Of a stretch of DNA of 64,000 bases, positions 1 through 58,113 are shown piece after piece. The notes under the pieces were generated by a model. The model was not told where the DNA came from and did not search any database. It saw only the letters and a list, made by a program, of their open reading frames with translations. The stretch is from Candidatus Micrarchaeota archaeon (GTDB taxonomy: Archaea; Micrarchaeota; Micrarchaeia; Norongarragalinales; Norongarragalinaceae): positions 96,001-160,000 of the forward strand of contig JACQQD010000001.1 in assembly GCA_016207165.1 (NCBI GenBank), given 5' to 3'. A program made the translations under genes and the position numbers. Each line of letters opens with the position of its first letter. Within the stretch, counting starts at the first letter, position 1.

Positions 1-2508
1 TGGGTGTGGATTGAAAACCTCCAGGAAAGCCGTTTTGTCGTTGAAGGCCAGCCCGCGTGGGACCGGGTTTTGTTTGATGGCGAGAAACTGGAGGTGCGCG
101 TGCGCGCGTTTCCCCATGCCATTGAACAGGGTAACCAATTGCTGCCGTTTTACTGGATTGATTTTGACACGACCTTGAAAACTTCGGAGCCGGATGTCGA
201 CGTGTTGGCGGAGTTGGAGGCGTTGCGCGTCATGTTTTCGCTGTACCAGCAAACCGGCCAGGGCTTGCCGGACATTGCGAAGAAAGCCGTGGGTTTCGAG
301 CGGTCGTTTCACGACCGCGATTTTTCCGCGGCCTCTTGTGAGGCGTCTTTGTCGGAACTCTTCAAGCAGTCCCTGCAAGCCGAGGAGCGCCTCATTTGGC
401 GGGGTCTCTTGTATCAAGGCGCCGACGGGGCGCTTTGGTTGCAGGTCGACGAGCGGCAAAACGAGAACTGGCATGGATTGGACTCGTGGGTGGAAGTCAA
501 CGTCAATTATCCGTACCACGATGTTCGAGGGGTGGACCGGGAATCCTTCAAAACCCGTCCGGCGTCGGAGCTCTTGGCGTTGTGGAAACAACATGTCGCG
601 GCGCTTGAACAAAACGGGCCTTCGGATTCAGGTTTTGCGCGTCGCGTGTCGGAAGTCAACGCGTTGGGAAACGTGTTATCCGAGAAAGCCAACGATGTTG
701 CCGACCCATTCACCGTTGAACAATGGCAGGCGGAACTAGAGTCCGCGTTTGACGCCTACACCACCGGCTTTTCGAAAACCCTGGTGCGCGAGAAAAACGT
801 GCACATCGCTTTGTTGTCCATGAACCAGACCCGTTCGAACTCCTATTGCCAGCCCGAACACCAGGAATGCGGGTTTTCGGACCGCTGCGAGAACGCGCAA
901 TGCGTGTTGGACCCCAGTCGCGGACCCCCAGAACCCGAGTTTGAACCTCCGGAATTCGTGGAACCGGTTCCGCCTATTGAACTGCCAGCGCCCGTGTCGG
1001 AACCCGTTGGTTCCGCGCCCACGGAAAACCCCTCGCTTTCGCCGACTCCGTCTGGTTCCCCGGCTGCAAGCCCGACGCCTTCCGTTGAACCCAGTGCCTC
1101 GCCGTCTCCGAGTCCCTCTGCGAGCCCAAGCCCGTCTCCGTCCGCGGAACCATCGTCTTTACCTAGTCCATTTCCAAGTCCGTCGCCCGCCGCCAACTTG
1201 TCCGCCCCAAGACTCTTCACGGGTTTTCTGACGCTTTCGGTTCCCGAAGAACCGGTGAGCTGCAATGCCAACCAGGTGTTCAACCCGGAATTCGGTCACT
1301 GCACGTGTTCCGCAGGATTTTTTGACTGCGACGGGGACTGGATTAACGGCTGCGAGTCGACGGTACAATGTCGTGAGTGTCAAGCGGACGCGGATTGCGC
1401 GCTGGCGCGCTGCGACGGCGACTATTCCACGGTCCGGTTCGTCTGCCGTTCAGGCGAGGCGTTTCAAGAACAGGTGGCGGCCGCGGAATTCGGCGCTTTT
1501 TGCCGGGAGGGCGTTGCGCGCGACGAATTCGGCGCGTGGGTCAGTGCATGGGGCGAAGGGTTCGAGTCCTTTGACCGGTTCAAGCAGGACGCGTGGAACG
1601 AAACGGAGAACCAGTGGTGCCAGCAGGAATTTGAATCGGCTCGGCTGGAGCGCTTGGCGTTGCAGGAAAGTTTGAACGACGAGTTCTTGACGTGGTTTTT
1701 CTCGGAGTTCGTGGACGAAAACGCCCGCGACTTTGAATCGCACGGCCGGTCGGTGCACGCCGTTTTTGACGCACTTCAAAGCGTGAACAGCGAATTGGCG
1801 CGCAGCATGGGCTGCTTGAAAATGACGGAATTGCCCGCCGAATTCAAGCCGGTATCCGTTTCCTTTGATTCCTTGGGGGGCGACGTGACGATTTGGGAAG
1901 AAGTCAAAACCGATGAAGAATTCGGGGAAGGAAAAACGCCCGTGATTTCCCCCTACGTGAAGATGTGGTTTTTCCCGCCCAAGGAAGAGTTCAAGAAGAT
2001 CTTCACGGAAAAAGTCAAGGAAAACTTTGTCGGCCCCACGCCGTCGGAAATCCAGTTCATCCGCCAGGACGAACAAGCCATGGCGAAAATCCGGAGCATT
2101 GCCAACGCGTTTGGCGGCGACGCCCGCATCGTCTTGGAGGTGCGCGACGGCGATGAAGTGGTATTGCGCAATTACAACGTGATCAACGAACGCGACGTCA
2201 TGAAAGTCTCTTTCGTGGATGAAGCGCCGCCGGACGCCAAAGTCACTTTGGTCATCGAATTTGACTTTTTGTATTCCATGATGGAAACCATCATCAAGGA
2301 TTTGGAGGGCGCCCGCACCCAGGGCCCGTGGTGGGAGGACCAATCCGAGCGGCCCCACGAATTCAACGAGGACCTCATCCCCATTCGCATGTTCTTGGGT
2401 TTGGTCGCCGGCATCTTCACCGGCGACATTCAAGTCCAGCCCGTCGACCAACTGCCGGCTGTAATCAGCGTGATTTCGGAATTGATGCAGGTCATGCCGA
2501 AACAGTAG
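1..2508 (+). CDS. Large probable surface/secreted protein, 5'-truncated, with Pro/Ser-rich linker and Cys-rich modules
   Basis: Open frame from the window edge (at least 834 aa); SPSPSPSA low-complexity tract; Cys clusters such as CTCSAGFFDCDGDWINGCES. Confidence 0.75.
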   Translation, partial: WVWIENLQESRFVVEGQPAWDRVLFDGEKLEVRVRAFPHAIEQGNQLLPFYWIDFDTTLKTSEPDVDVLAELEALRVMFSLYQQTGQGLPDIAKKAVGFERSFHDRDFSAASCEASLSELFKQSLQAEERLIWRGLLYQGADGALWLQVDERQNENWHGLDSWVEVNVNYPYHDVRGVDRESFKTRPASELLALWKQHVAALEQNGPSDSGFARRVSEVNALGNVLSEKANDVADPFTVEQWQAELESAFDAYTTGFSKTLVREKNVHIALLSMNQTRSNSYCQPEHQECGFSDRCENAQCVLDPSRGPPEPEFEPPEFVEPVPPIELPAPVSEPVGSAPTENPSLSPTPSGSPAASPTPSVEPSASPSPSPSASPSPSPSAEPSSLPSPFPSPSPAANLSAPRLFTGFLTLSVPEEPVSCNANQVFNPEFGHCTCSAGFFDCDGDWINGCESTVQCRECQADADCALARCDGDYSTVRFVCRSGEAFQEQVAAAEFGAFCREGVARDEFGAWVSAWGEGFESFDRFKQDAWNETENQWCQQEFESARLERLALQESLNDEFLTWFFSEFVDENARDFESHGRSVHAVFDALQSVNSELARSMGCLKMTELPAEFKPVSVSFDSLGGDVTIWEEVKTDEEFGEGKTPVISPYVKMWFFPPKEEFKKIFTEKVKENFVGPTPSEIQFIRQDEQAMAKIRSIANAFGGDARIVLEVRDGDEVVLRNYNVINERDVMKVSFVDEAPPDAKVTLVIEFDFLYSMMETIIKDLEGARTQGPWWEDQSERPHEFNEDLIPIRMFLGLVAGIFTGDIQVQPVDQLPAVISVISELMQVMPKQ

Positions 2509-2537: not shown

Positions 2538-2551
2538 AAAGCCCTTTTAAA
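2538..2551 (+). promoter_or_regulatory. Putative BRE/TATA promoter of tRNA-Phe
   Basis: AAAGCCCTTTTAAA about 70 nt upstream of the tRNA. Confidence 0.45.
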
Positions 2552-2621
2552 CCAATTCTTGCAAACCTTCTTCCTTGGGTTTGGCGGTGGCCGCTTCGCG
2601 GAAATCGTTCGACCTCAAGAT

Positions 2622-2819
2622 GCCGCTGTAGCTCAGCCTGATCGTTTAAACCCGGTTCGGGTTTAAGGCGAGGCTATGGAGAGCGTTCGATTTTCCTGAT
2701 GAGTTTTCATCCGGGAAAGACGAAGCTGAAGACCTGTCCTAGGCAGAAACCGATAGGAACCTGGCCCGTTTGGGTTTGGTTCTCGGTAAGTGCCGTGAGT
2801 TCAAATCTCACCAGCGGCA
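2622..2819 (+). tRNA. tRNA-Phe(GAA) with four introns (2641-2677, 2690-2724, 2732-2748, 2755-2789)
   Basis: Joined exons give GCCGCTG TA GCTC AGCCTGGGA GAGC G TTCGG CTGAAGA CCGAT GTGCC GTGAG TTCAAAT CTCAC CAGCGGC A (74 nt); three introns have clear BHB motifs and the 37/38 intron a relaxed one. Confidence 0.9.
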
Positions 2820-2843
2820 TTTTTCTTTTCTATTCTATTTTTG
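2820..2843 (+). terminator. Oligo-T archaeal terminator
   Basis: T-rich tract directly after the tRNA discriminator base. Confidence 0.5.
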
Positions 2844-2901
2844 GTTTGCCGGTCCAAGCTTATTCTAACCTTTTTATGGTTTGGCGACGTATTTTTTCGT
2901 C

Positions 2902-20492: not shown

Positions 20493-21307
20493 TTCAGGGG
20501 ACAGGCGGGGCAGTACGTGCCTTCGAATCCGTTGTCCATCATGACTTTGCAGGAAAACCCGATGTCGCGATCATACACCCAGTTCAGCGTGCTTTCCCCT
20601 TCGCTTGGCGTGAAGGGTTTGGTGCCGGAACACCGCGAAACGTAGTCTTGCATGAGTTTTTGTGCGGCGTCTTTGGGCACGCCGTCGCGGCGCGCGGCAA
20701 TGCTTAACCCCATGGCGCCGTAGAATCGCTTGCCTTCCGGCGAACCGGTTAGAATGGATTGGATGCAGCCGAGGTCCAAAAACTTTTTGCCGTAGCTTTT
20801 CTTTTTGGGTTGGTCGTCCAATGCGCTGGCTTTGCGTTGGATGGCGTCCGGCACGTCTTGGGCGGCGGAGTCGGTGAATTTTTCGGCGATGGCTTTGCTC
20901 AAAAGGGCGTTGAGTTCCTGGTTGTTGATGGCCACCCGCCCGTCGCGCGCGGTTTGGTGCACGAGGTTCTCGCCGAACCTCAGGTAGTCGGAAAGCGTCA
21001 GCGAATAGCGTTCGCCTTCCGCGTGCAGGCTTTCCAGGAAGGCGCGTCCGACGGAGAGCTGTTCGTTCTTGCGGTTGATGCGTTGGACGTACTCTTCGGC
21101 TTTTTTCTTGGCGTACTTTTTTTTGACGTAGTCGCTCAAGCAACTCAAGAGTGCCTTGGAGAGGGCGTACAATTTGACGTGGCGGCCGGTGTTCTCGTAG
21201 GTGGATTCCGTGACGGGTTGTTTGAGGAACAAAATCGCGGCGTCGATGTCCGCGTCGTTCAGGCCGGGCTCCAGTTGCGCTTTGGCGTCGGGAAGAAACG
21301 GGTACAT
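20474..21307 (-). CDS. priL: DNA primase large subunit
   Basis: YPFL start; C-terminal Cys residues (GCI...FSC...CPACP); same operon as priS. Confidence 0.75.
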   Translation of the reverse strand: MYPFLPDAKAQLEPGLNDADIDAAILFLKQPVTESTYENTGRHVKLYALSKALLSCLSDYVKKKYAKKKAEEYVQRINRKNEQLSVGRAFLESLHAEGERYSLTLSDYLRFGENLVHQTARDGRVAINNQELNALLSKAIAEKFTDSAAQDVPDAIQRKASALDDQPKKKSYGKKFLDLGCIQSILTGSPEGKRFYGAMGLSIAARRDGVPKDAAQKLMQDYVSRCSGTKPFTPSEGESTLNWVYDRDIGFSCKVMMDNGFEGTYCPACPLNWRKKT

Positions 21308-56883: not shown

Positions 56884-57013
56884 GCCGAGGTAGCTCAGCC
56901 TGGCTAGAGCGCTAGACTCATATGCCCGTTTCCTTGTTTAGGGAGCGGTGGAATTCTATGCCGGTGGTTGCTGGGCCATCTAGAAGTCGAGGGTTCAAAT
57001 CCCTCCCTCGGCA
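56884..57013 (+). tRNA. tRNA-Met(CAT), elongator-type, with 55-nt intron at 37/38 (56923-56977)
   Basis: GCCGAGG/CCTCGGC acceptor, CTAGA/TCTAG anticodon stem; BHB with CTCA/TGGG helix and TA^T and CC^A bulges. Confidence 0.92.
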
Positions 57014-58113
57014 TGACCCGGAAAGTTCATGTGCCGCACTCCATCAAGATTCAAACGAGCGTACTGTTTGAGCAAATCCATTTTGCCTTCGTCAAAGATT
57101 TTCCTGACGATTTGACGCATCAAGTCCTTGTCCTTCCGGATCAATTCGACGACTTCATCCGAAAAGCCTTCCAGGAATTCCTCGGGAGACGTGGCCCCCA
57201 TTTTCTGCAATTCACCCATGAGCGCCTGCTCTCCGGAGTGATCGTACACTGAAAGCATGTTGGACTTCTTGGACCACCGCGCAAACGTGCGCGTCGCCGA
57301 ATCACTAGCGCCGTTGGCCCGCAACTGCGTGATCTTGGAGTGCCGGAACCAATGCGGGTTGATCCGCTTCTTGACGCCGGCACGCTGGCCGAGGCCACGC
57401 AAGAACTTGGCCAAGTTCGCCGGCTCCAACGCATCACCATGAAAATTCAGCCAAAGCGGGGCCTCCGAATCCGATTTCTTCGGGTGTTCACGCAAGTACG
57501 CCCGGAACAAGTCGACGGCGTGACGATTGATCACCGGCACGCGGCCGTTCCGGTACGGCGTCTTGGTACCATGAAAGTGAAAGATCAAAAACGGCGGCCG
57601 ATCCGTGACGTCGCCCACCTTCAAATCCGTGAACTCCTTGGCGGCGCCCCCGGATTCAAACAAGCACCGCACCACAACTTGCTCCCGCACGCTGCGACAC
57701 GCCGCCTCCAAGCGCGTGATGTCCTCATCGGTGAGAACCTCGTTCTCCGGAATCAATTTGTCCGCCGGCCGAACCACGCGCACCCGGCCCGCCCGCTTGG
57801 CGTCACCATCCAAGAACCGGTAAAACTTTTTGAGAGCCACCTGGTAGTCGTGCTTGGTCCACGCCCGCCACTTGCTCGTGTTAATGGCCACTAGGACGGC
57901 ATCCAAGTCTTCGTCCTGGAGATCCACCAACGCCTTGGAAGTCAAGCGCTTGATGGACGTAAAATTGCTGATGTACTTGCTCAACCGCAACTCGCCCACG
58001 CCCTGGGCCTGCAAGTTGTTCAAGAACCGCGTGATGGCCTCCTTGTCCCGCGCCGAAAAAGTAGACCTAGCCAACGACAGCTGGCGTTGCGCGTACAAAG
58101 CCACTCCATCCAT
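56995..58113 (-). CDS. int: Tyrosine recombinase/integrase
   Basis: KT, PHWFRHS, W(SKKS) and VYDH catalytic Tyr; the first catalytic Arg position reads ESGGAAKE. Confidence 0.92.
   Translation of the reverse strand: MDGVALYAQRQLSLARSTFSARDKEAITRFLNNLQAQGVGELRLSKYISNFTSIKRLTSKALVDLQDEDLDAVLVAINTSKWRAWTKHDYQVALKKFYRFLDGDAKRAGRVRVVRPADKLIPENEVLTDEDITRLEAACRSVREQVVVRCLFESGGAAKEFTDLKVGDVTDRPPFLIFHFHGTKTPYRNGRVPVINRHAVDLFRAYLREHPKKSDSEAPLWLNFHGDALEPANLAKFLRGLGQRAGVKKRINPHWFRHSKITQLRANGASDSATRTFARWSKKSNMLSVYDHSGEQALMGELQKMGATSPEEFLEGFSDEVVELIRKDKDLMRQIVRKIFDEGKMDLLKQYARLNLDGVRHMNFPGHAEGGI

What the first reader, a model, noticed from the sequence alone, without database searches (positions are those of the whole stretch)
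2622..2819. tRNA-Phe gene interrupted by four introns
Seen: five exons (19, 12, 7, 6 and 30 nt) join into a 74-nt tRNA-Phe(GAA). The introns are 37, 35, 17 and 35 nt at positions 18/19, 30/31, 37/38 and 43/44. Intron 1 has helix AGCC/GGCT with bulges TG^A and AT^G. Intron 2 has CGTT/GACG with CG^A and AA^G. Intron 4 has ACCG/CGGT with AT^A and AA^G. Intron 3 is relaxed (CTGA/GCAG). BHB geometry leaves a U27-U43 mismatch; shifting intron 4 by one base would give a perfect stem but break the BHB. Known: Thermoproteales and ARMAN/Micrarchaeota have multi-intron tRNAs; as I recall the reported maximum is three per gene. Inference: this is an unusually fragmented tRNA that standard scanners probably miss.
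Basis: partly seen in the sequence, partly recalled or inferred. Interest (0 to 1): 0.9.

Follow-up and report, generated by a model that had tools for sequence, protein, structure and literature searches.

The report
Phenylalanine tRNA gene with four introns
A tiny groundwater archaeon carries its only detectable phenylalanine tRNA gene in five pieces separated by four short introns, one more than the maximum of three stated in the tRNA papers I could read.

Summary
Exons 2622-2640, 2678-2689, 2725-2731, 2749-2754 and 2790-2819 join into a 74-nt tRNA-Phe(GAA) cloverleaf. ARAGORN and Rfam both miss it on genomic DNA.

All four introns carry a bulge-helix-bulge (BHB) motif in the canonical register. 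Three are strict and the one at 37/38 is relaxed.

Among 68 genomes of the same order, 57 tRNA-Phe genes were resolved. They carry 0 (30 genes), 1 (18), 2 (4), 3 (3) or 4 (2) introns, at recurring sites, with compensatory changes that keep the BHB helices paired.

The genome encodes a full-length epsilon2-type splicing endonuclease, homologous to PDB 4fz2 with the catalytic and ASL residues conserved, and an RtcB ligase. No second tRNA-Phe was found.

The BHBs of introns 3 and 4 overlap by one base, so splicing probably needs more than one round.

No RNA data exist, so splicing is inferred. The papers I read state a maximum of three introns per tRNA gene, and six searches found no four-intron report. 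Verdict: a real gene and a record-extending variant of a known kind.

The parts
2538..2551 (+). BRE/TATA-like promoter element (AAAGCC + TTTTAAA). It is conserved upstream of tRNA-Phe in the two other species of the genus.
   Evidence: the motif aligns in G000, G002 and G001. In G001 and G002 it lies about 30 nt upstream of the tRNA. In G000 about 44 extra bases separate it from the tRNA. Promoter function is inferred, not shown.
2552..2621 (+). Spacer and predicted 5' leader, unusually long. The transcription start is not mapped.
   Evidence: Inference only.
2622..2640 (+). Exon 1 (19 nt): acceptor 5' strand, D-stem 5' strand and D-loop up to G18.
2641..2677 (+). Intron 1 (37 nt, site 18/19). 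Strict hBHBh': central helix 2635-2638/2672-2675, bulges 2639-2641 and 2676-2678, inner helix 6 bp, outer helix 3 bp.
   Evidence: H4, h'6, h3; present in the MFE fold with pair probabilities 0.78-0.82; 13 species have an intron at this site, with 49 of 52 inner-helix cells paired.
2678..2689 (+). Exon 2 (12 nt): G19 to G30.
2690..2724 (+). Intron 2 (35 nt, site 30/31). BHB: central helix 2684-2687/2719-2722 (one G.U), bulges 2688-2690 and 2723-2725, inner helix 2691-2696/2713-2718.
   Evidence: H4, h'6, h2; 8 species, 32 of 32 inner-helix cells paired, with exon/intron compensatory changes; the canonical register is 5.7 kcal/mol less stable locally than a shifted continuous helix.
2725..2731 (+). 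Exon 3 (7 nt): G31 to G37, including anticodon GAA.
2732..2748 (+). Intron 3 (17 nt, canonical site 37/38). Relaxed BHB: 3 bp 2726-2728/2744-2746 plus an A x G mismatch, bulges 2730-2732 and 2747-2749.
   Evidence: H3, h'4, h1. Identical 17 of 17 in same-genus G002. Not formed in the MFE folds.
2749..2754 (+). Exon 4 (6 nt): A38 to U43.
2755..2789 (+). Intron 4 (35 nt, site 43/44). BHB: central helix 2749-2752/2784-2787, bulges 2753-2755 and 2788-2790, inner helix 2756-2761/2778-2783.
   Evidence: H4, h'6, h1. The central helix and the 3' bulge are in the MFE fold. The boundary is supported by collinearity with intronless orthologues.
2790..2819 (+). Exon 5 (30 nt): variable loop, T-arm, acceptor 3' strand and discriminator A73. 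No CCA is encoded.
2820..2848 (+). T-rich tract (TTTTT, TTTT, TTTTT) directly after A73. Likely transcription termination signal.
   Evidence: Read directly. Function inferred from general knowledge of archaeal termination at T-runs.

Best explanation
This is the working, and probably only, tRNA-Phe(GAA) gene of a small Micrarchaeota-type archaeon. Four endonuclease-type (BHB) introns interrupt it at 18/19, 30/31, 37/38 and 43/44.

Proposed pathway:
1. The gene is transcribed from the conserved BRE/TATA-like element as a precursor of at least 198 nt.
2. The genome's three-unit epsilon2 EndA dimer recognises each bulge-helix-bulge and cuts after the second base of each 3-nt bulge.
3. RtcB joins the exons.
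4. The ends are trimmed and CCA is added.

The BHBs of introns 1, 2 and 4 can coexist in the primary transcript. The relaxed BHB of intron 3 shares base 2749 with the central helix of BHB 4, and it gains its outer helix (the anticodon stem) only after intron 2 is gone. Exons 3 and 4 are only 7 and 6 nt long. I therefore infer that splicing runs in at least two cut-and-ligate rounds, with the canonical intron removed last.

Shown: gene anatomy, BHB geometry, conservation and covariation in relatives, and presence of the enzymes. Inferred: transcription, actual cleavage and ligation, and the order of removal.
For: **Product**
- The five exons give a clean 74-nt Phe(GAA) cloverleaf.
- 68 of 74 bases match the intronless orthologue L013. 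That orthologue scores 64 bits with Rfam tRNA, and two others score 62.5 and 67.4.

**Chance control**
- Spliced-alignment score is 89, against a maximum of 31 in 150 random genome windows.

**BHB geometry**
- All 4 introns have the motif in the exact canonical register.

**Relatives**
- Among 68 genomes of the order, 57 tRNA-Phe genes were resolved: 30 with no intron, 18 with one, 4 with two, 3 with three (G002, G060, G037) and 2 with four (G000, G015).
- Four of the one-intron calls (G058, G035, G062, G063) rest on BLAST coordinates only.

**Covariation**
- Site 18/19: 49 of 52 inner-helix cells are paired in 13 species, with 2-4 pair types per position. Controls with the partner slid give 24-41 of 52.
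- Site 30/31: 32 of 32 cells are paired in 8 species, against 21-26 when slid.
- Exon changes are compensated in the intron: AGTC/GACT in G044 and CATT/GATG in G015.

**U27.U43**
- The mismatch also occurs in intronless orthologues.

**Enzymes**
- One 428-aa EndA ORF has two tRNA_int_endo matches and N-terminal domains.
- It aligns end to end with PDB 4fz2 (E 1.9e-120). 4fz2 is the ARMAN-2 epsilon2 enzyme (PMC3488258, abstract seen in the listing).
- By my hand count on the alignment, chain positions Y160, K161, Y236, H251 and K282 are identical in the query. PMC12397907 (passages) names these as the ASL and catalytic residues.
- RtcB is present.

**Single copy**
- No second tRNA-Phe was found.
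- ARAGORN's two 'Phe(aaa)' calls resolve as Arg(GCG) and Pro(CGG), each with one non-canonical intron.

**Folding**
- BHB 1, 2 and 4 can coexist with the acceptor and T arms at -81.8 kcal/mol, against an MFE of -87.8.

**DNA**
- The locus is identical in contigs from other samples of one study, including one 652-nt contig with 0 differences.

**Promoter**
- A promoter-like motif is conserved within the genus.
Against: - There is no RNA evidence of any kind.
- BHB 3 is relaxed (3 of 4 pairs). It is absent from the MFE of the precursor and from the MFE of the intermediate lacking introns 1, 2 and 4.
- Canonical BHB 2 is 5.7 kcal/mol less stable locally than a register-shifted helix.
- The product scores 114.8 in ARAGORN. 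That is below three alternatives that differ only in the intron 4 boundaries (116.9-121.1), and in the lower part of the range of the 22 intronless tRNAs ARAGORN finds in this genome (100.2-123.9).
- The product has a U27.U43 mismatch.
- The genome is 90% complete, so a second tRNA-Phe cannot be excluded.
- I could not score the spliced sequence with Infernal or tRNAscan-SE.
- Several other tRNA loci of the genome stayed unresolved, so I cannot say that Phe is the most fragmented gene here.
Confidence: 0.85

Rival explanations
1. The gene is real, but intron 4 is cut elsewhere. One option is 2753-2784, giving a 77-nt tRNA with G.U pairs at 27-43 and 28-42 and an 8-nt variable loop. Another is a one-base shift that gives A43 and a perfect stem.
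For: The MFE fold extends the central helix by an A2753-U2783 pair, which moves the 5' bulge to 2754-2756. Same-genus G002 has A43.
Against: Only 2755-2789 has a 4-bp central helix flanked by two 3-nt bulges plus a 6-bp inner helix. The others score H3/h'4 or H4/h'5 with no outer helix. Only 2755-2789 gives a product collinear, without indels, with every intronless orthologue. Those orthologues also carry T27 and T43. By hand, the register AACC/TCGG does not pair.
Confidence: 0.07
2. This is a decaying or silent gene copy. The functional tRNA-Phe lies in the roughly 10% of the genome that is not assembled, or is a still more cryptic split or permuted gene.
For: Genome completeness is 90.22%. 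There is no expression data. BHB 3 is weak. About five expected anticodons were not found in my census, so hidden tRNA genes do exist.
Against: All stems, the anticodon, G18, G19, G20, the T-loop and A73 are intact. All four BHBs are intact. The same interrupted gene is the only tRNA-Phe found in relatives G002 and G015. BHB helices show compensatory change, which implies continuing selection. Promoter-like and T-run signals are kept.
Confidence: 0.06
3. The pattern is a chance look-alike or an assembly chimera, not a gene.
For: ARAGORN is permissive once a real acceptor stem and T-arm are given: 211 of 1740 arbitrary splice combinations gave some tRNA call. Contigs of runs X1 and X4 break or branch around 2719-2755.
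Against: The spliced-alignment score is about 14 sd above random windows. Orthologues in dozens of relatives share exon sequences and intron sites. One contig from another sample spans 2450-2980 with 0 differences.
Confidence: 0.01

Closest known systems
Multi-intron tRNA genes of Thermoproteales (Pyrobaculum, Thermofilum, Caldivirga) with (alpha-beta)2 EndA
   Same: Several short BHB introns sit at canonical and non-canonical positions in one collinear tRNA gene, removed by a broad-specificity EndA. In both cases iterative intron removal is needed, because one BHB forms only after another intron is gone (tRNAscan-SE 2.0 paper PMC8450103, passages).
   Different: The stated maximum there is three per gene (PMC8450103; PMC3239211), and here there are four. 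The host is a DPANN-type Micrarchaeota relative with a single-chain epsilon2 enzyme, not a crenarchaeon. No paralogous intron copies exist in the genome: blastn of each intron gives self-hits only. I therefore saw no sign of the intron transposition proposed for Thermoproteales (that proposal is recalled and cited in PMC3239211).
Disrupted tRNA genes of ARMAN-2 (Candidatus Micrarchaeum acidiphilum) and its epsilon2 EndA (PDB 4fz2)
   Same: The endonuclease architecture is the same, with a full-length alignment and conserved ASL Tyr-Lys and catalytic Tyr/His/Lys. Many tRNA genes have introns at non-canonical sites, including strict and relaxed BHB. The ARMAN-2 enzyme cleaves both types in vitro (PMC3239211 abstract and passages; PMC12397907 passages).
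   Different: The passages I read on ARMAN-2 describe at most two introns in one tRNA (two in a T-loop). Here four introns leave 6- and 7-nt exons.
Multi-intron nuclear tRNA genes of the red alga Cyanidioschyzon merolae
   Same: These genes have up to three BHB-type introns per gene, including a tRNA-Phe(GAA) with a D-arm intron plus 37/38. RT-PCR intermediates showed that non-canonical introns are removed before the canonical 37/38 intron (PMC3728597 passages). That is the same order I infer here.
   Different: It is a eukaryotic nucleus with a eukaryotic endonuclease and a maximum of three introns. The order of removal was measured there and is only inferred here.
Split, tri-split and permuted tRNA genes (Nanoarchaeum, Caldivirga, Thermofilum)
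   Same: The tRNA is fragmented at BHB-forming junctions that EndA processes.
   Different: Those pieces are encoded at separate loci or in permuted order. Here all five exons are collinear within 198 nt on one strand.

Membership tests
Archaeal EndA-dependent (BHB) tRNA intron | Two 3-nt bulges separated by a 4-bp helix at the exon-intron junctions, with cuts after the second bulge base | tested here: met
   introns 1, 2 and 4 have 4 of 4 central pairs with 3-nt bulges and 6-bp inner helices. Intron 3 has 3 of 4 (relaxed form).
Archaeal EndA-dependent (BHB) tRNA intron | Removal restores a canonical cloverleaf tRNA | tested here: met
   (ARAGORN cloverleaf, Phe GAA, 74 nt). (score 114.8, and the top-ranked combinations share introns 1-3). 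Infernal or tRNAscan-SE scoring of the spliced product was not possible.
Archaeal EndA-dependent (BHB) tRNA intron | Structure is conserved by compensatory change in homologous introns | tested here: met
   sites 18/19 (13 species) and 30/31 (8 species) show covarying inner and central helices. Site 37/38 (5 species) is inconclusive: 10 of 20 cells paired in strict register and 16 of 20 with the partner slid by one. Sites 43/44 and 44/45 have one example each.
Archaeal EndA-dependent (BHB) tRNA intron | Host encodes a splicing endonuclease able to cut non-canonical or relaxed BHB, and an RtcB ligase | tested here: met
   (epsilon2-type EndA, E 1.9e-120 to 4fz2). (residue roles). (RtcB, 479 bits).
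Archaeal EndA-dependent (BHB) tRNA intron | Introns are actually excised and exons ligated in vivo or in vitro | not testable with these tools
   No RNA run holds the locus. Needs tRNA-seq or RT-PCR, or an EndA cleavage assay.
tRNA-Phe | Anticodon GAA in a 7-nt loop, plus the Phe identity set G20 and A73 (identity set recalled from the yeast, human and archaeal literature, not from a call) | tested here: met
   anticodon GAA, discriminator A73, D-loop with G18 G19 G20. 68 of 74 bases are identical to intronless tRNA-Phe of G021.
Multi-intron tRNA genes as described so far | One to a maximum of three introns per gene | tested here: not met
   Four introns. The limit of three is stated in PMC3239211 and PMC8450103. 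Literature searches found no four-intron tRNA.
Split or permuted tRNA gene | Exons at separate loci or in permuted order | tested here: not met
   Exons are collinear within 2622-2819 on the + strand.
Hammerhead ribozyme (type III), suggested by CUGAUGA...CGAA in intron 2 | Rfam RF00008 score at or above 48.5 bits | tested here: not met
   12.9 bits, E 7.9. The motif is absent from the intron at the same site in G002 and G015.

The most novel reading that the evidence does not exclude
This gene and its G015 counterpart are the most fragmented collinear tRNA genes yet described, with four BHB introns and 6-7-nt micro-exons. Because two of the BHBs are mutually exclusive, maturation must follow an obligatory multi-round, ordered cut-and-ligate pathway. 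The micro-exons could not stay bound if all eight cuts came first.

tRNA-Phe in this Micrarchaeota order is also an intron hot spot. I saw eight sites (17/17a, 18/19, 27/28, 30/31, 37/38, 43/44, 44/45, 59/60). Gain and loss are fast even within a genus (4, 3 and 1 introns in G000, G002 and G001), and there may be a one-base intron slide (43/44 versus 44/45).
Probability: 0.5. Interest if true: 0.65.

Novelty: new variant of a known kind. Interest (0 to 1): 0.55.

Why it matters
- **It breaks a textbook-style limit.** Papers state that archaeal tRNA genes contain up to three introns, and gene finders stop looking accordingly. ARAGORN and Rfam both miss this gene, so an essential tRNA would be scored as absent from such genomes.
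- **It offers a natural substrate for open questions about the splicing machinery.** How does one EndA dimer choose among four neighbouring BHBs? Is removal ordered? How small an exon can RtcB join? Here the exons are 6 and 7 nt.
- **The enzyme is already in hand.** The ARMAN-2 enzyme, a close homologue, is purified and crystallised with RNA.
- **It gives a compact data set on intron evolution.** The 0-to-4 intron series in one orthologous gene across 57 related genomes bears on how quickly BHB introns are gained, lost and moved.

Tried and rejected
- **Infernal or tRNAscan-SE score of the spliced product.** I used ARAGORN in the script box, plus Rfam scores of intronless orthologues as a proxy.
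- **Expression.** The look-up of sequencing runs listed no RNA holder. The runs laid were DNA contigs only, so nothing can be said about transcripts, junctions or ends.
- **Whole-genome tRNA census.** I used my own BHB plus ARAGORN screen.
  - It resolved most genes with 0-1 introns.
  - It left C3:89779-89896, C9:46942-47034, C12:25733-25840, C7:25089-25148, C6:120659-120714, C6:89898-90067, C8:93189-93329, C6:95280-95384 and C8:101473-101652 unresolved, and found only low-scoring solutions for C1:179844-180062.
  - About five anticodons were not found.
  - I therefore do not claim that Phe is the only highly fragmented gene in this genome.
  - The screen needs an uninterrupted T-arm and a 7-bp acceptor stem.
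- **Rejected as other tRNAs.** In G016 and G020, loci L007 and L005 (anticodon region reads GCA). Also loci L108, L109 and L120-L122 (low scores).
- **Left unresolved.** G012 (L011) has a masked N stretch inside the gene. G048 ends at a contig end.
- **Intron paralogues or transposition.** blastn-short of each intron against the genome gave self-hits only, and pairwise scores among the four introns were low.
- **Homology of intron interiors between species.** Only intron 3 of G000 and G002 is clearly the same (17 of 17). Introns 1, 2 and 4 are no more alike than shuffled partners. Common descent versus independent gain of the fourth intron (43/44 versus 44/45) therefore stays open.
- **Hammerhead or C/D-box reading of intron 2.** Rejected (not conserved).
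- **Thermodynamic folding as a test of BHB 2 and BHB 3.** The MFE prefers other pairings. I report this against the model rather than discarding it.
- **The search of earlier findings was closed.** No earlier findings were seen.
- **Supplementary tables.** Those of PMC3239211, PMC5829648 and PMC8450103, which list per-gene intron counts, could not be opened. They might hold a four-intron case that the main texts do not mention.
Full report
**1. What is there**

A script joined 2622-2640, 2678-2689, 2725-2731, 2749-2754 and 2790-2819. ARAGORN called the 74-nt product tRNA-Phe(GAA), with a 7-bp acceptor stem, a 4-bp D-stem, a 5-bp T-stem, a 7-nt anticodon loop and a single U27.U43 mismatch. With its 9-nt D-loop, the four gaps fall at Sprinzl 18/19, 30/31, 37/38 and 43/44.

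On the unspliced DNA the gene is invisible to all of these:
- ARAGORN without introns and with -i.
- Rfam at gathering threshold.
- Rfam at E<=10 on the region, where the only hit is a 12.9-bit hammerhead look-alike.
- RF00005 over the whole genome at E<=10.

**2. More than chance**

I ran a spliced alignment of an intronless tRNA-Phe from a relative (L013:1371-1444) against window 2560-2880. It scores 89. 150 random 321-nt windows of the same genome gave mean 8.9, sd 5.6, max 31.

ARAGORN alone is not proof. Given the real gene ends, 211 of 1740 BHB-compatible splice combinations produced some tRNA call. The genome's 22 intronless tRNAs found by ARAGORN score 100.2-123.9.

**3. Intron anatomy**

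Each intron has a bulge-helix-bulge in the canonical register, with the 4-bp helix ending two bases before each cut.

| Intron | Central pairs | Inner helix | Outer helix |
|---|---|---|---|
| 1 | 4 of 4 | 6 bp | 3 bp |
| 2 | 4 of 4 (one G.U) | 6 bp | 2 bp |
| 3 | 3 of 4 (relaxed) | 4 bp | 1 bp |
| 4 | 4 of 4 | 6 bp | 1 bp |

For intron 4, only 2755-2789 gives the 3-4-3 geometry. Only that choice yields a product collinear, without indels, with every intronless orthologue. The orthologues themselves often carry T27 and T43, for example L013, L009, L012 and L020. The mismatch is therefore a lineage trait, not a splice error.

**4. Relatives**

The genome has 1.27 Mb in 12 contigs, 56% G+C and 90% completeness. 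It has 67 species-level relatives in its order, each 0.4-1.6 Mb. I located tRNA-Phe in them by BLAST, fetched loci and resolved the genes by spliced alignment and by BHB plus ARAGORN. Tally over all 68 genomes including this one:

| Introns | Genomes | Notes |
|---|---|---|
| 0 | 30 | |
| 1 | 18 | 9 at 18/19; 4 at or near 30/31 (G032 checked by sequence; G035, G062 and G063 read from BLAST coordinates only); 3 at 59/60; 1 each at 17/17a, 27/28 and 37/38 (G058, from BLAST coordinates only) |
| 2 | 4 | G004, G011: 30/31 + 37/38. G024, G027: 18/19 + 30/31 |
| 3 | 3 | G002: 18/19, 30/31, 37/38. G060, G037: 30/31, 37/38, 59/60 |
| 4 | 2 | G000; G015 with 18/19, 30/31, 37/38, 44/45 |
| Unresolved or not found | 11 | G005, G009, G041, G016, G020, G012, G028, G048, G049, G059, G061 |

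Within the genus the counts are 4 (G000), 3 (G002) and 1 (G001).

At every shared site the BHB is in the same register, while the intron interiors differ.
- At 18/19, 49 of 52 cells of the first four inner-helix pairs are paired in 13 species, with two to four pair types per position. Controls with the partner slid give 24-41 of 52.
- At 30/31, 32 of 32 cells are paired in 8 species, against 21-26 when slid.
- Two exon substitutions are compensated in the intron strand of the central helix, in G044 and G015.
- Site 37/38 is inconclusive, with 10 of 20 cells paired in strict register.
- Intron 3 is identical in G000 and G002. The other intron interiors are no more alike than shuffled partners.

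**5. Host machinery**

One ORF (G000:C4, L021:1198-2484 minus strand, 428 aa) carries two tRNA_int_endo catalytic-domain matches and N-terminal domains. It aligns over residues 52-428 with PDB 4fz2 at E 1.9e-120. 4fz2 is the three-unit epsilon2 EndA of ARMAN-2 (PMC3488258, abstract in the listing).

Counting along that alignment by hand, chain positions 160-161 (Tyr-Lys of the ARMAN-specific loop) and 236, 251 and 282 (Tyr, His, Lys) are identical in the query. PMC12397907 (passages) assigns these to substrate positioning and catalysis. It also shows that the enzyme cuts both BHB and relaxed substrates.

197 relatives of this EndA were confirmed in the species-genome collection. The 80 listed are almost all labelled Micrarchaeota, Micrarchaeia or Norongarragalinales. 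RtcB is present (479 bits).

**6. Is it the only tRNA-Phe?**

My T-arm/acceptor-anchored screen of the whole genome found one credible Phe(GAA), and that is this locus. The only other 'Phe' solution (C3, score 103.6, five weak introns) reuses the 3' end of tRNA-Glu(TTC). ARAGORN's two 'Phe(aaa)' calls resolve as Arg(GCG) and Pro(CGG), each with one non-canonical intron. blastn-short of the spliced product finds no second locus.

The other genes that resolved need 0-1 introns. Several loci and about five anticodons stayed unresolved, so I make no claim that Phe is unique in its degree of fragmentation here.

**7. How it probably works**

Shown: the anatomy, the enzymes and the conservation. Inferred: the rest.
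- The 198-nt precursor folds much more stably than mononucleotide shuffles (-87.8 kcal/mol, z about -6.4). Its MFE contains BHB 1 and the central helix and 3' bulge of BHB 4. BHB 2 appears in a shifted register, and BHB 3 is absent.
- Forcing canonical BHB 1, 2 and 4 together is compatible with the acceptor and T arms, at -81.8 kcal/mol.
- BHB 3 cannot coexist with BHB 4. Base 2749 is the third bulge base of BHB 3 and the first pair of the central helix of BHB 4.
- The outer helix of BHB 3 is the anticodon stem, whose 5' strand is broken by intron 2.
- Exons 3 and 4 are 7 and 6 nt. If all eight cuts preceded ligation, they would be held by very few pairs.

I therefore propose at least two rounds. 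Introns 1, 2 and 4 are cut and ligated first, and the relaxed canonical intron 3 goes last. That order matches what RT-PCR showed for three-intron genes of C. merolae (PMC3728597 passages).

Against this model, the MFE of the intermediate lacking introns 1, 2 and 4 still does not form BHB 3.

**8. Context**

- A BRE/TATA-like element (2538-2551) is conserved upstream of tRNA-Phe in all three species of the genus. In G000 about 44 extra bases lie between it and the tRNA.
- T-runs follow A73 directly, and CCA is not encoded.
- The flanking genes are an 834-aa ORF with no Pfam family and a short-chain dehydrogenase.
- DNA contigs of four groundwater runs from one study carry the locus. One 652-nt contig from a different sample spans 2450-2980 with no differences. 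One contig in X4 branches away right after 2755, the first base of intron 4, which suggests a co-occurring variant.
- No RNA run holds the locus.

**9. Novelty**

Passages read:
[quoted passage not shown] - Up to three in C. merolae (PMC3728597) and in another eukaryote's tRNA genes (PMC4090602).

Full-text searches found no four-intron tRNA. Subscription journals and supplementary tables were not searchable.

The mechanism is the known one. What is new is the number of introns, the micro-exons and the implied ordered pathway, plus a 0-4 intron series in one orthologous gene. I rate it a new variant of a known kind, with interest 0.55.

Noticed in passing
window 56884-57013 (+) = G000:C1:152884-153013: A second intron-containing tRNA in the window: tRNA-Met(CAT), 75 nt after removal of one 55-nt intron (my screen, ARAGORN score 122.2). 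Rfam finds it at 59.1 bits. ARAGORN without the intron option miscalls it as 'tRNA-??? (gctg)' at 56935-57014.
   Followed up: partly
G000:C9:93630-96344 (+), outside the window: The RtcB ligase gene lies in a 963-aa open frame. Pfam profile positions 1-50 and 48-426 are about 1350 nt apart, which looks like an intein-sized insertion in RtcB.
   Followed up: no
window 2554-2621: About 44 extra bases lie between the conserved TATA-like element and the tRNA 5' end in G000, compared with G001 and G002. This implies either an unusually long 5' leader or a displaced promoter. The insert contains a small G+C-rich hairpin-like stretch.
   Followed up: partly
window 2696-2724 (intron 2): A CUGAUGAG...CGAA stretch gives a weak Hammerhead_3 match (12.9 bits, E 7.9, cut-off 48.5) and resembles a C box. 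It is not conserved in the intron at the same site in G002 or G015, so it is probably chance.
   Followed up: yes
window 2726-2755; run X4 record 26: A 252-nt contig shares 2726-2755 and then continues with unrelated letters immediately after 2755, the first base of intron 4. Contigs of X1 also break at 2719-2755 with higher depth there. This suggests co-occurring relatives that share exon 3, intron 3 and exon 4 but differ in intron 4.
   Followed up: no
G000:C1:33951-34054 and G000:C12:130940-131051: ARAGORN -i labels both as tRNA-Phe(aaa). With a BHB-guided non-canonical intron (30 nt and 39 nt) they become tRNA-Arg(GCG) and tRNA-Pro(CGG), scoring 115.6 and 118.6. This shows how intron-blind tools mislabel tRNAs in this lineage.
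   Followed up: yes
L111 (G046), L113 (G029), L115 (G038), L117 (G037), L118 (G060): In these relatives tRNA-Phe carries an intron in the T-loop at 59/60, with lengths from 45 to 136 nt. G046 and G038 share the same intron ends.
   Followed up: partly
window 4-2508 (+): An 834-aa ORF directly upstream of the tRNA has no Pfam family at E<=0.001.
   Followed up: no
L011 (G012:C33, about 20807-20959): The tRNA-Phe locus of this relative contains a run of N (masked or withheld stretch) inside the gene, so its intron content cannot be read.
   Followed up: no
whole genome G000: Anticodons not found by any method used: Gln(CTG), Leu(TAA), Leu(GAG), Thr(GGT) and a third CAT tRNA. Several tRNA-like loci remain unresolved, for example C3:89779-89896, C12:25733-25840 and C6:89898-90067. 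They may hide further multi-intron genes.
   Followed up: partly
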